From the NCBI RefSeq assembly GCF_053078305.1, contig NZ_CP166879.1: a stretch of DNA of 64,000 nucleotides, one strand, 5' to 3'. Below, in pieces: positions 3,385-3,672 of the stretch. Each line of letters starts with the position of its first letter. The stretch's first letter is position 1. Under the pieces are notes generated by a model that saw only the letters and a program-made list of their open reading frames with translations, was not told where the DNA came from and made no database searches. A program made the position numbers and the translations under genes.

Positions 3385-3672
3385 CGGCGTAAACGCCTTA
3401 TCCGGCCTACACATGCGTCCCCGTAGGTCGGATAAGACGCGCCAGCGTCGCATCCGACATTTTGGGCACAGTAGCTGTATGTGACATGAACGCATTATGT
3501 GACCAACACATGCGCTCCCCGTAGGTCGGATAAGACGCGCCAGCGTCGCATCCGACATTTTGGGCACAGTAGGCGGATGCGACATGAACGCATTATGTGA
3601 CCAACACATGCGCTCCCCGTAGGTCGGATAAGGCGCGTCAGCGTCGCATCCGACATTTTGGGCACAGTAGCC
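3385..3672. repeat. Three tandem units (about 98 bp each) of a REP/BIME-type palindromic intergenic repeat
   Basis: A unit (..catgcgctccccgtaggtcggataagacgcgccagcgtcgcatccgacattttgggcacagtag..) recurs with starts near 3411, 3509 and 3607; contains the classic gccggatgcggcg/cgccttatccggcctac REP palindrome. Confidence 0.85.

What the first reader, a model, noticed from the sequence alone, without database searches (positions are those of the whole stretch)
3385..3672. Triple tandem array of a REP-containing 98-bp unit between hypF and norW
Three near-identical tandem units with REP palindromes sit between convergent genes. It superficially resembles a repeat array but has no unique spacers, so it is a BIME-type cluster rather than CRISPR. 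Copy number at this site probably varies between strains.
Basis: seen in the sequence. Interest (0 to 1): 0.3.

Follow-up and report, generated by a model that had tools for sequence, protein, structure and literature searches.

The report
Variable REP (BIME) array, hypF–norW
The three 98-bp repeats between hypF and norW are an ordinary E. coli BIME-2-type cluster of REP palindromes, and its copy number ranges from 0 to 5 units among E. coli strains, which is expected for this known class of repeat.

Summary
Tandem Repeats Finder reports a 98-bp period with 3.0 copies at 3377-3672. The units are 88-94% identical, against a 25% background.

Each unit has four modules: a Y-type REP position, a 12-13 nt S linker, an inverted Z2-type REP and a 14 nt l linker. 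This is the module order of the K-12 prototype BIME-2, REP325, whose period is 100 bp.

Only unit 1 has an intact Y REP. Units 2 and 3 carry a diverged "Y*" that has lost its hairpin and its CTAC tail. Y* occurs only at this locus, but it is also present in E. albertii.

There are no unique spacers, so this is not a CRISPR array.

Among 5,426 complete E. coli genomes:
- 0 units, a REP-free and apparently derived allele: about 13%
- 1 unit (K-12, O157): about 49%
- 2 units: about 35%
- 3 units: roughly 30-40 genomes
- 4 units: about 50 genomes
- 5 units: one genome

In E2348/69 the REP-targeting element IS1397 sits in the REP loops of this array.

The likely roles are the generic BIME ones: RNA 3'-end hairpins or attenuators between convergent operons, a gyrase/HU site, and a RAYT substrate. 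These are inferred, not shown here. The element is already known and of low interest.

The parts
1100..3352 (+). hypF (carbamoyltransferase HypF), left flanking gene; stop codon TAA at 3350-3352
   Evidence: The ORF ends at 3352. NCBIfam TIGR00143 scores 1055 bits. RefSeq homologues are 2253 nt, which sets the start near 1100.
3361..3376 (.). l-like linker upstream of the first REP (ATTTGGACACCCTTG-type). The Rfam naRNA4 model aligns it to the canonical l linker.
   Evidence: Direct-repeat family D2; CM alignment AAGGGUGUCCAA against the consensus AAcGGUGCCGACU.
3377..3410 (-). Intact Y-type REP. In REP orientation (5'-GTAG) on the - strand; on the + strand it reads GCCGGATGCGGCGTAAACGCCTTATCCGGCCTAC.
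   Evidence: Inverted repeat I8. Folds at -21.3/-19.5 kcal/mol. Its core (3379-3410) matches the REP pattern with no mismatch. The hairpin core matches the TnpA-REP co-crystal y REP apart from the stem foot (PMC3479197).
3411..3422 (.). S linker, unit 1 (ACATGCGTCCCC, 12 nt)
   Evidence: Sequence; alignment.
3423..3459 (+). Z2-type REP, copy 1 (GTAG + GTCGGATAAGACGCGCCAGCGTCGCATCCGAC + A)
   Evidence: Inverted repeat I11; -21.3 kcal/mol; aligned to the Z2 half of the naRNA4 model with two compensated stem pairs.
3460..3473 (.). l linker (TTTTGGGCACAGTA)
3474..3507 (.). Y* module, unit 2 (GCTGTATGTGACATGAACGCATTATGTGACCAAC): a diverged Y REP that has lost the REP hairpin and the CTAC tail
   Evidence: Folds at only -4 to -7 kcal/mol.
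3508..3520 (.). S linker, unit 2 (ACATGCGCTCCCC, 13 nt)
3521..3557 (+). Z2-type REP, copy 2 (identical to copy 1)
   Evidence: Inverted repeat I12.
3558..3571 (.). l linker
3572..3605 (.). Y* module, unit 3 (GGCGGATGCGACATGAACGCATTATGTGACCAAC); 25 of 34 positions identical to Y
   Evidence: This Y* junction sequence is found in 1973 of 5426 genomes, with a median of one place per genome.
3606..3618 (.). S linker, unit 3. On the - strand it pairs with part of Y* to form a 12-bp hairpin (-14.2 kcal/mol).
   Evidence: No covariation was found.
3619..3655 (+). Z2-type REP, copy 3 (two substitutions: GGCGCGTCAG)
   Evidence: Inverted repeat I14.
3656..3669 (.). Terminal l linker, followed by GCCCGC and the norW stop codon
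3676..4809 (-). norW (NADH:flavorubredoxin reductase), right flanking gene, convergent with hypF; stop codon TAG at 3678-3676
   Evidence: ORF; NF003437 at 686 bits; RefSeq annotation.

Best explanation
This is a BIME-2-type cluster (bacterial interspersed mosaic element) of REP palindromes. It fills the spacer between the convergent hydN-hypF and norVW transcription units of an E. coli chromosome.

Each 98-bp unit has four modules: a Y-position module, a short S linker, an inverted Z2-type REP and an l linker. Unit 1 has an intact Y REP. Units 2 and 3 carry an old, locus-specific, degenerate Y derivative (Y*).

Shown here: the anatomy; the strong hairpins (1 Y and 3 Z2); the module order shared with the prototype REP325; a copy-number series of 0-5 units across E. 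coli; the presence of the multi-unit state, including Y*, in E. albertii; and use of these REP loops as IS1397 insertion targets.

Inferred:
- The ancestor of E. coli and E. albertii already had at least two units (Y-Z2 | Y*-Z2).
- Units have since been gained and lost repeatedly. The mechanism is replication slippage or unequal exchange between 98-bp direct repeats, possibly helped by the REP-associated tyrosine transposase (TnpA-REP/RAYT). RAYT needs a GTAG-tagged bulged REP, and all three Z2 copies and the Y copy still provide one.
- Functionally the array acts as other BIMEs are reported to act. Its hairpins would protect the 3' ends of both convergent mRNAs from exonucleases and attenuate read-through, and it would give gyrase and HU a binding site between converging polymerases.
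- Extra units are probably close to neutral.
For: Tandem structure.

REP identity and hairpin energies.

Module order: the Rfam naRNA4 (REP325-derived) model aligns each Y/Y*-l-Z2 block at 45-50 bits, with E-values of 1e-7 to 1e-6 in the 1.5-kb search (3e-8 to 4e-7 in the 371-base rerun), and with compensated Z2 stem pairs. K-12 REP325 has a period of 100 bp, 5.8 copies and the order Y-l-Z2-S.

BIME-2 definition and known strain-to-strain copy variation: PMC3333891, PMC1187871.

Copy-number series.

Outgroups: E. albertii has 3 units with Y*; Salmonella and Citrobacter have one inverted REP pair at the same site; more distant genera have spacers of 2-31 bp.

IS1397 junctions lie in the Y and Z2 loops in E2348/69. 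The REP specificity of IS1397 is documented in PMC1525189.

Both strands fold far better than shuffles, with z about -6.

Gyrase cleavage is enriched in BIME-2 elements (PMC6379681).
Against: No experiment or transcript data for this locus was available. Supplements of the gyrase Topo-seq paper mention neither norW nor hypF.

Gyrase prefers y REPs, and only one intact y is present, so extra units may add little gyrase binding.

There is no U-tract terminator and no promoter in the array.

About 13% of E. coli genomes lack the REPs at this site altogether, so the array is dispensable.

Units 2 and 3 do not strictly meet the 'y + z2' composition of BIME-2, because Y* is degenerate. Bachellier's 'atypical BIME' label may be more exact.
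Confidence: 0.85

Rival explanations
1. The array is purely selfish or neutral repeat DNA. It is a decaying BIME with no local function, and its unit number drifts by slippage.
For: The site is REP-free in 685 of 5426 genomes and ranges from 1 to 5 units in the rest, with intact flanking genes in every locus read. The Y* modules have lost the REP hairpin. Y* differs between E. coli and E. albertii by about 10%, which I take to be about the neutral level; no neutral baseline was computed (my count from the sequences). There is no covariation in the alternative hairpin.
Against: The four intact REPs keep GTAG, the bulge and -21 kcal/mol stems. The site has held inverted REP pairs in Escherichia, Salmonella and Citrobacter, so it is long occupied. 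Functions for BIMEs in general are published. This rival overlaps with the best explanation, which also treats extra units as near-neutral.
Confidence: 0.35
2. The array is a gene cluster for naRNA4-like nucleoid-associated noncoding RNAs. One Y-l-Z2 RNA per unit would bind HU and bridge cruciforms, as proposed for REP325.
For: Four hits to Rfam RF02564 on the - strand at 32-50 bits. The architecture matches REP325. About 80% of K-12 REPs are reported to be transcribed (PMC4550694).
Against: All hits fall below the gathering score of 59.5, whereas another BIME in the same window passes at 76.4 bits. In units 2 and 3 the Y hairpin, one of the two hairpins said to be required, is destroyed. No promoter-like site was found.
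Confidence: 0.07
3. The REPs act as translational down-regulators of hypF or norW, by stalling terminating ribosomes and triggering trans-translation (the mechanism of Liang, Rudd and Deutscher, 2015).
For: REPs lie just downstream of both stop codons. In Salmonella arizonae the corresponding REPs start within about 6-8 nt of the stops.
Against: The published rule requires the REP to lie within 15 nt of the stop codon (as cited in PMC12306157). In this window the gaps are 24 nt (hypF to Y) and 21 nt (norW to Z2), from the coordinates. The original paper could not be read.
Confidence: 0.05
4. The array is a CRISPR-like array, or a coding or other structured element. One candidate is the 126-aa ORF at 3229-3609 on the - strand.
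For: The palindromes are regularly spaced, and a mechanical ORF overlaps the array.
Against: There are no unique spacers, because the whole unit is repeated. There are no cas genes nearby. The unit length of 98 is not a multiple of 3, so the 0-5-unit alleles would shift any reading frame. No Rfam family other than naRNA4 matches meaningfully.
Confidence: 0.01

Closest known systems
BIME-2 family of E. coli (Bachellier/Gilson/Hofnung classification); prototype compared here is REP325 between yjdM and yjdN in K-12
   Same: Both have alternating inverted Y-position and Z2 palindromic units, a short S linker on the GTAG/CTAC side and an l linker on the other side. Both are head-to-tail tandem units of about 100 bp (98 here, 100 in REP325) in an extragenic position. 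Copy number is polymorphic between strains, and the REPs are targets of IS1397.
   Different: Only the first unit has a true Y REP; units 2 and 3 carry a degenerate Y* (25 of 34 positions identical, hairpin lost). The Z2 copies have a GTCGGAT/ATCCGAC outer stem instead of GCCTGAT/ATCAGGC, which is two compensated pairs and removes the TGCC|TGAT RAYT cleavage site. The S linker (13 nt, ACATGCGCTCCCC) is unrelated to that of REP325 (17 nt). There are fewer copies (3 against 6).
The single-unit BIME at the same hypF-norW site in E. coli K-12 MG1655 and O157:H7
   Same: It is the orthologous element, with identical Y, S, Z2 and flanking sequence.
   Different: K-12 has one unit in a 127-bp spacer. 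The window has three units in a 323-bp spacer, and the two extra units are of the Y*-Z2 type.
naRNA4 / CssrE (Rfam RF02564)
   Same: The Y-l-Z2 block aligns over the full 77-nt model.
   Different: The score is 45-50 bits against a gathering score of 59.5, and the Y hairpin is broken in units 2 and 3.
CRISPR arrays
   Same: Both have regularly spaced short palindromic repeats in an intergenic region.
   Different: There are no unique spacers, no leader and no cas genes, and the repeat is a GTAG-tagged REP.

Membership tests
REP / palindromic unit (E. coli y and z2 classes) | A 30-40 nt imperfect palindrome able to form a stable hairpin | tested here: met
   Y at 3377-3410 and Z2 at 3423-3459, 3521-3557 and 3619-3655 fold at -20 to -21 kcal/mol on the + strand (copy 3 folds at -15.7 on the - strand); inverted repeats I8, I11, I12 and I14. 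The two Y* modules do not meet this feature (-4 to -7 kcal/mol).
REP / palindromic unit (E. coli y and z2 classes) | A conserved GTAG tetranucleotide 5' of the hairpin foot (CTAC on the complement), and a mismatched AA:GC bulge in the stem | tested here: met
   GTAG at 3423, 3521 and 3619 (+ strand) and CTAC at 3407-3410. The CGGATAAG...CGCATCCG arrangement matches the co-crystal REP (PMC3479197; sequence). Y* has CAAC/GTTG instead, so it does not meet this feature.
REP / palindromic unit (E. coli y and z2 classes) | Extragenic and highly repeated in the genome | tested here: met
   The array lies between the two stop codons. The 751-bp query hits a median of 27 places per E. coli genome. Other REPs occur in the window at 30558-30635 and 46633-46664.
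BIME-2 | Composed of y and z2 REPs in alternating, inverted orientation | tested here: inconclusive
   Met in unit 1 (Y + Z2). In units 2 and 3 the y position is held by a degenerate derivative, so 'atypical BIME' could be argued under PMC3333891.
BIME-2 | Occurs as multiple tandem copies | tested here: met
   TRF reports 3.0 copies with period 98. Other strains have 4 and 5 copies.
BIME-2 | A short S linker between the REP and iREP, with s/l/r motifs on the other side | tested here: inconclusive
   Linkers of 12-13 nt and 14 nt sit in the right positions. The l linker aligns with the l of naRNA4/REP325 (AC.GTGCC). The S linker is unrelated to that of REP325. PMC3333891 states that BIME-2 linkers vary in length and sequence.
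BIME-2 | The number of tandem units at a locus varies between strains | tested here: met
   Alleles of 0-5 units were found among 5,426 genomes.
BIME-2 | Bound and cleaved by DNA gyrase in vivo | not testable with these tools
   Only literature on BIME-2 in general was available (PMC6379681). Its supplements do not mention this locus.
CRISPR array | Repeats separated by unique spacers of similar length | tested here: not met
   The inter-Z2 segments are 94% identical between units 2 and 3.
CRISPR array | Adjacent cas genes or a leader | tested here: not met
   The flanking genes are hypF, norW, norV and norR.
naRNA4 (Rfam RF02564) | Score at or above the curated gathering threshold (59.5 bits) | tested here: not met
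   The best hits score 50.4, 49.4, 45.6 and 32.1 bits.
Translation-regulating REPs (Liang et al. 2015) | REP within 15 nt downstream of a stop codon | tested here: not met
   The gaps are 24 nt (hypF stop at 3352 to Y at 3377) and 21 nt (norW stop at 3676 to the Z2 stem end at 3654). The rule is taken as quoted in PMC12306157.
Intrinsic (Rho-independent) terminator | A GC-rich hairpin followed by a U-tract | tested here: not met
   No terminator-like site was found in 3353-3675. Each Z2 is followed by only A-TTTT-GGG on the + strand.

The most novel reading that the evidence does not exclude
The degenerate Y* module together with its S linker may not be mere decay. It could be an exapted, locus-specific RNA hairpin in the norVW 3' UTR (12 bp, -14 kcal/mol on the norW-sense strand), kept since before the E. 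coli / E. albertii split. In that case the number of Y*-Z2 units (0-5) would tune stability or read-through of the NO-detoxification (norVW) or hydrogenase-maturation (hypF) transcripts, or yield HU-binding naRNA-like RNAs.
Probability: 0.05. Interest if true: 0.35.

Novelty: already known. Interest (0 to 1): 0.1.

Why it matters
It matters little in itself. BIME-2 arrays and their strain-to-strain copy-number polymorphism have been described since the 1990s (Bachellier et al. 1994, 1997; Ton-Hoang et al. 2012).

The locus has three modest uses:
- It is a clean 6-allele VNTR marker (77 to 517 bp) between two conserved genes, suitable for typing or for measuring BIME gain and loss rates.
- It is a natural allelic series for testing whether BIME unit number affects the convergent norVW and hydN-hypF transcripts or local gyrase binding.
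- It is a worked example of what a first-pass reader should not flag as CRISPR.

Tried and rejected
(1) The idea that the hypF stop codon lies inside a decayed Z2 REP. The Rfam model aligns 3348-3372 as a truncated Z2, but a local alignment against a real Z2+l is not better than shuffles or random 55-mers (p about 0.08-0.15). I do not claim it.

(2) The idea that the alternative S+Y* hairpin is under structural selection. Across 12 distinct variants from E. coli and E. albertii, 95% of cells are paired but no pair changes on both sides. The shuffle control is uninformative, so the result is inconclusive.

(3) A vestigial Y REP at the norW stop (4th naRNA4 hit, 32 bits). That stretch is norW coding sequence, conserved in REP-free alleles and in Salmonella, so I rejected it.

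(4) Terminator and promoter scans found nothing in the spacer.

(5) Literature look-ups for this specific locus found nothing. A hypF/norW/REP search mostly matched 'Norway'. The one relevant paper reports a REP-like motif upstream of hypF, at a different site. Liang 2015 and Bachellier 1997 are not held. Ton-Hoang's supplements are not held and the Topo-seq supplements do not mention the genes.

Frequencies are therefore combined from the tool's counts.

Full report
OBSERVATION

Tandem Repeats Finder reports a single array at 3377-3672 with period 98, 3.0 copies, 90% matches, no indels and score 487. The three units align with 93% mean column identity. Pairwise identities are 87.8% (U1/U2), 87.8% (U1/U3) and 93.9% (U2/U3). 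Identity at a lag of 98 nt reaches 0.94-0.96 in the array. The window mean is 0.25 and the best value anywhere else is 0.41, so chance is excluded.

The flanking ORFs are HypF (+, ending at 3352) and NorW (-, stop codon 3676-3678), followed by NorV and NorR. All are NCBIfam equivalog matches well above cutoff. The array starts at 3377, not 3385.

ANATOMY

Reading the + strand:
- l-like linker, 3361-3376
- Y REP, 3377-3410 (GCCGGATGCGGCGTAAACGCCTTATCCGGCCTAC)
- S linker, 3411-3422
- Z2 REP, 3423-3459 (GTAG-GTCGGATAAGACGCGCCAGCGTCGCATCCGAC-A)
- l linker, 3460-3473 (TTTTGGGCACAGTA)
- Y*, 3474-3507
- S linker, 3508-3520
- Z2 REP, 3521-3557
- l linker, 3558-3571
- Y*, 3572-3605
- S linker, 3606-3618
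- Z2 REP, 3619-3655
- l linker, 3656-3669
- GCCCGC, then the norW stop codon

The Y copy and the three Z2 copies fold at about -21 kcal/mol. They carry the GTAG/CTAC tetranucleotide and the AA:GC bulge that define E. coli REPs and that TnpA-REP recognises (PMC3333891; PMC3479197).

The Y* modules (GGCGGATGCGACATGAACGCATTATGTGACCAAC) share 25 of 34 positions with Y. They fold at only -4 to -7 kcal/mol and have CAAC in place of CTAC. They are degenerate Y REPs. Each 98-bp unit therefore contains two REP-derived modules in inverted orientation, but the array holds four good REPs, not six.

WHAT FAMILY

PMC3333891 and PMC1187871 define BIME-2 as tandem copies of y and z2 REPs in inverse orientation. 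A short S linker separates them, s/l/r motifs lie on the other side, the linkers are variable, and copy number differs between strains.

I compared the array directly with the K-12 prototype REP325, which lies between yjdM and yjdN. REP325 has a period of 100 bp, 5.8 copies and the order Y-l-Z2-S. The module order and the period of about 100 bp are the same here.

The Rfam model built from REP325 RNA (naRNA4, RF02564) aligns each Y/Y*-l-Z2 block end to end at 45-50 bits. In that alignment the l linkers match at AC.GUGCC. The Z2 outer-stem differences (GUCGGAU/AUCCGAC against GCCUGAU/AUCAGGC) appear as two compensated pairs.

The scores stay below the gathering threshold of 59.5 because the Y half is broken in units 2 and 3. 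Another BIME in the same window, at 30558-30635, passes at 76.4 bits. The S linker is unrelated to that of REP325.

The array is therefore BIME-2-like. 'Atypical BIME' would be the more exact label if the degenerate Y* is counted strictly.

It is not a CRISPR array. Everything between successive Z2 copies is itself repeated, and no cas genes are nearby. The mechanical 126-aa ORF at 3229-3609 (-) cannot be a conserved coding sequence, because 98 is not a multiple of 3 and unit number varies.

VARIATION BETWEEN STRAINS

Spacers read directly from E. coli genomes:

| Spacer | Units | Example |
|---|---|---|
| 77 bp | none, REP-free | L006 |
| 127 bp | 1 | K-12 |
| 223-225 bp | 2 | L003, L005, L089-L091 |
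| 323-327 bp | 3 | window; L002, L093-L096 |
| 419 bp | 4 | strain D1 |
| 517 bp | 5 | strain VCSW8 (TRF 5.0 copies) |

The O157:H7 rows have the same match span as K-12 and so also carry one unit, but their spacer was not read directly.

Counts over 5,426 complete genomes:
- 685 genomes (12.6%) carry the REP-free allele, at a single place each.
- 4,654 genomes carry a BIME allele that covers at least 80% of the query.
- 1,973 genomes (36.4%) contain Y*, meaning at least 2 units, with a median of one place per genome. Y* is therefore specific to this locus.

By subtraction, about 49% of genomes have one unit. The D1-type unit query matched 89 genomes in 229 places. That implies about 50 genomes with 4 units, one with 5, and roughly 30-40 with 3. 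This agrees with the 28 three-unit rows seen and the 144 surplus Y* places. These last numbers are estimates, not a per-genome census.

Three-unit arrays on different flanking haplotypes mostly share the same unit order. One of them (L094) has the unit-2 type twice, which indicates ongoing conversion or independent duplication.

EVOLUTION

A scan of one genome per species with NorW returned 80 loci, and I read the hypF-norW spacers.
- The E. albertii type strain has three units, including two Y*-type modules.
- An Escherichia sp. (E1V33) has a three-unit array nearly identical to the window.
- E. whittamii and one divergent 'E. coli' have one unit.
- Salmonella and Citrobacter each have their own single inverted REP pair at the same position.
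- More distant genera (Kosakonia, Trabulsiella) have spacers of 2-31 bp with no REP.

I infer that the site has been occupied by REPs since before the Escherichia, Salmonella and Citrobacter lineages separated. I also infer that the Y-Z2 | Y*-Z2 state predates the E. coli / E. albertii split. Y* copies within a species resemble each other more than they resemble copies across species, which indicates concerted evolution or independent duplications.

The REP-free E. coli allele replaces window positions 3322-3671, including the last ten hypF codons. Its HypF tail is ARILHTA*. The BIME allele ([11 protein letters not shown]), E. albertii, Salmonella (ARWLSEA*) and C. amalonaticus (ARWLGDA*) all share ARWL (my reading). 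I infer that the REP-free allele is derived, not ancestral.

INDEPENDENT SIGN OF BIME BEHAVIOUR

In EPEC strain E2348/69 the same spacer is 4.1 kb long. It holds a nest of IS1397, another IS3-family element and ISEc21. The outer junctions fall in the loop of the Y REP (GCGGCGTAAA|) and in the loop of the first Z2 REP (|GCCAGCGTCGC). IS1397 is known to insert specifically into REPs/PUs (PMC1525189; references).

HOW IT MOST LIKELY WORKS

Shown: both strands of the spacer fold far more stably than shuffles (z = -6.0 and -5.8), through four strong REP hairpins. No sigma-70-like promoter and no U-tract terminator lies in the spacer.

Inferred from the published properties of BIMEs:
- When either convergent operon is transcribed into the spacer, the REP hairpins protect the mRNA 3' ends against 3'-5' exonucleases and partly attenuate read-through.
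- As DNA, the array offers a transcription-independent gyrase site. Gyrase prefers y REPs, and there is only one here.
- The array also offers cruciform or HU contact points.
- The GTAG-tagged bulged REPs remain potential TnpA-REP substrates.
- Unit number changes by slippage or unequal exchange between 98-bp direct repeats, or by the RAYT-based amplification model of PMC3333891.

The ribosome-stalling mechanism requires a REP within 15 nt of the stop codon. Here the gaps are 24 and 21 nt, so that mechanism is unlikely. Because 13% of strains lack the REPs and the rest range from 1 to 5 units with intact neighbours, extra units are probably near-neutral.

NOVELTY AND VERDICT

The element belongs to a class described decades ago, its one-unit orthologue is in K-12, and copy-number polymorphism of BIME-2 arrays is textbook. 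The only mildly new points are descriptive: the 0-5 allelic series, the age and locus specificity of Y*, and the derived REP-free allele that alters the HypF tail.

The most novel reading not excluded is that Y*+S has become a functional RNA hairpin and that unit number tunes norVW or hypF expression. It has no positive support, because there is no covariation. Interest is low.

Noticed in passing
window 30558-30635 (- strand): Another BIME (a Z2 REP with the canonical GCATGAT/ATCAGGC stem, a linker and a Y REP). It passes the Rfam naRNA4 (RF02564) gathering score at 76.4 bits, unlike the hypF-norW array.
   Followed up: partly
window 46633-46664 (+): An isolated Y-type REP (CGGATGCGGCGTAAACGCCTTATCCGACCTAC) that matches the REP pattern with no mismatch.
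   Followed up: no
window 20251-21114: A tRNA cluster of Ser(gct) plus four Arg(acg) genes, with a 275-bp tandem duplication (TRF 2.1 copies, 95%) spanning the Arg copies. tRNA copy number here may also vary between strains.
   Followed up: no
window 23889-23960 (-), 54895-54969 (+), 62793-63155 (-): MicA sRNA, a tRNA with a CAT anticodon, and tmRNA (tag peptide ANDENYALAA). These are consistent with the E. coli chromosomal region running from hypF to ssrA.
   Followed up: no
window 57923-62632 (+), repeat at 61595-61682: A 1569-aa ORF next to ssrA, with Gly/Thr/Asn-rich repeats. A 12-nt tandem repeat encodes a PNPDPNPNPNPKPDPKPDP proline-rich linker. It looks like an autotransporter adhesin on an ssrA-adjacent island, but it was not searched against family libraries.
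   Followed up: no
L092 (E. coli E2348/69, NZ_CP059840.2 1113500-1119300): The orthologous hypF-norW BIME is interrupted by a 4.1-kb nest of IS1397, another IS3-family element and ISEc21. The outer junctions lie in the loops of the Y REP and the first Z2 REP.
   Followed up: yes
L006 672-772 and L008 (E. coli REP-free allele): 685 of 5426 E. coli genomes replace the whole BIME and the last 10 hypF codons with a 77-bp spacer carrying a CCCCTCGCCC-TTT-GGGCGAGGG hairpin. HypF then ends ARILHTA* instead of [11 protein letters not shown]. Comparison with Salmonella, Citrobacter and E. albertii suggests this allele is derived. Its origin is unknown.
   Followed up: partly
L055 (Superficieibacter electus) and L041 (Phytobacter ursingii), hypF-norW spacer: At the same intergenic site these genera carry a different palindromic repeat family (CCCTCTCCC..GGGAGAGGG hairpins). 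In L055 it forms three tandem units of about 84 bp. The site seems to be a general landing pad for small palindromic repeats.
   Followed up: no
L013, L014, L016, L025, L026 (Citrobacter and Intestinirhabdus), just downstream of hypF: These species have a canonical-looking terminator hairpin flanked by A-runs (AAAAAAAGCCCCGGGACTGGCGGGGCAAGAAAAA) directly after the hypF stop. E. coli lacks this hairpin.
   Followed up: no
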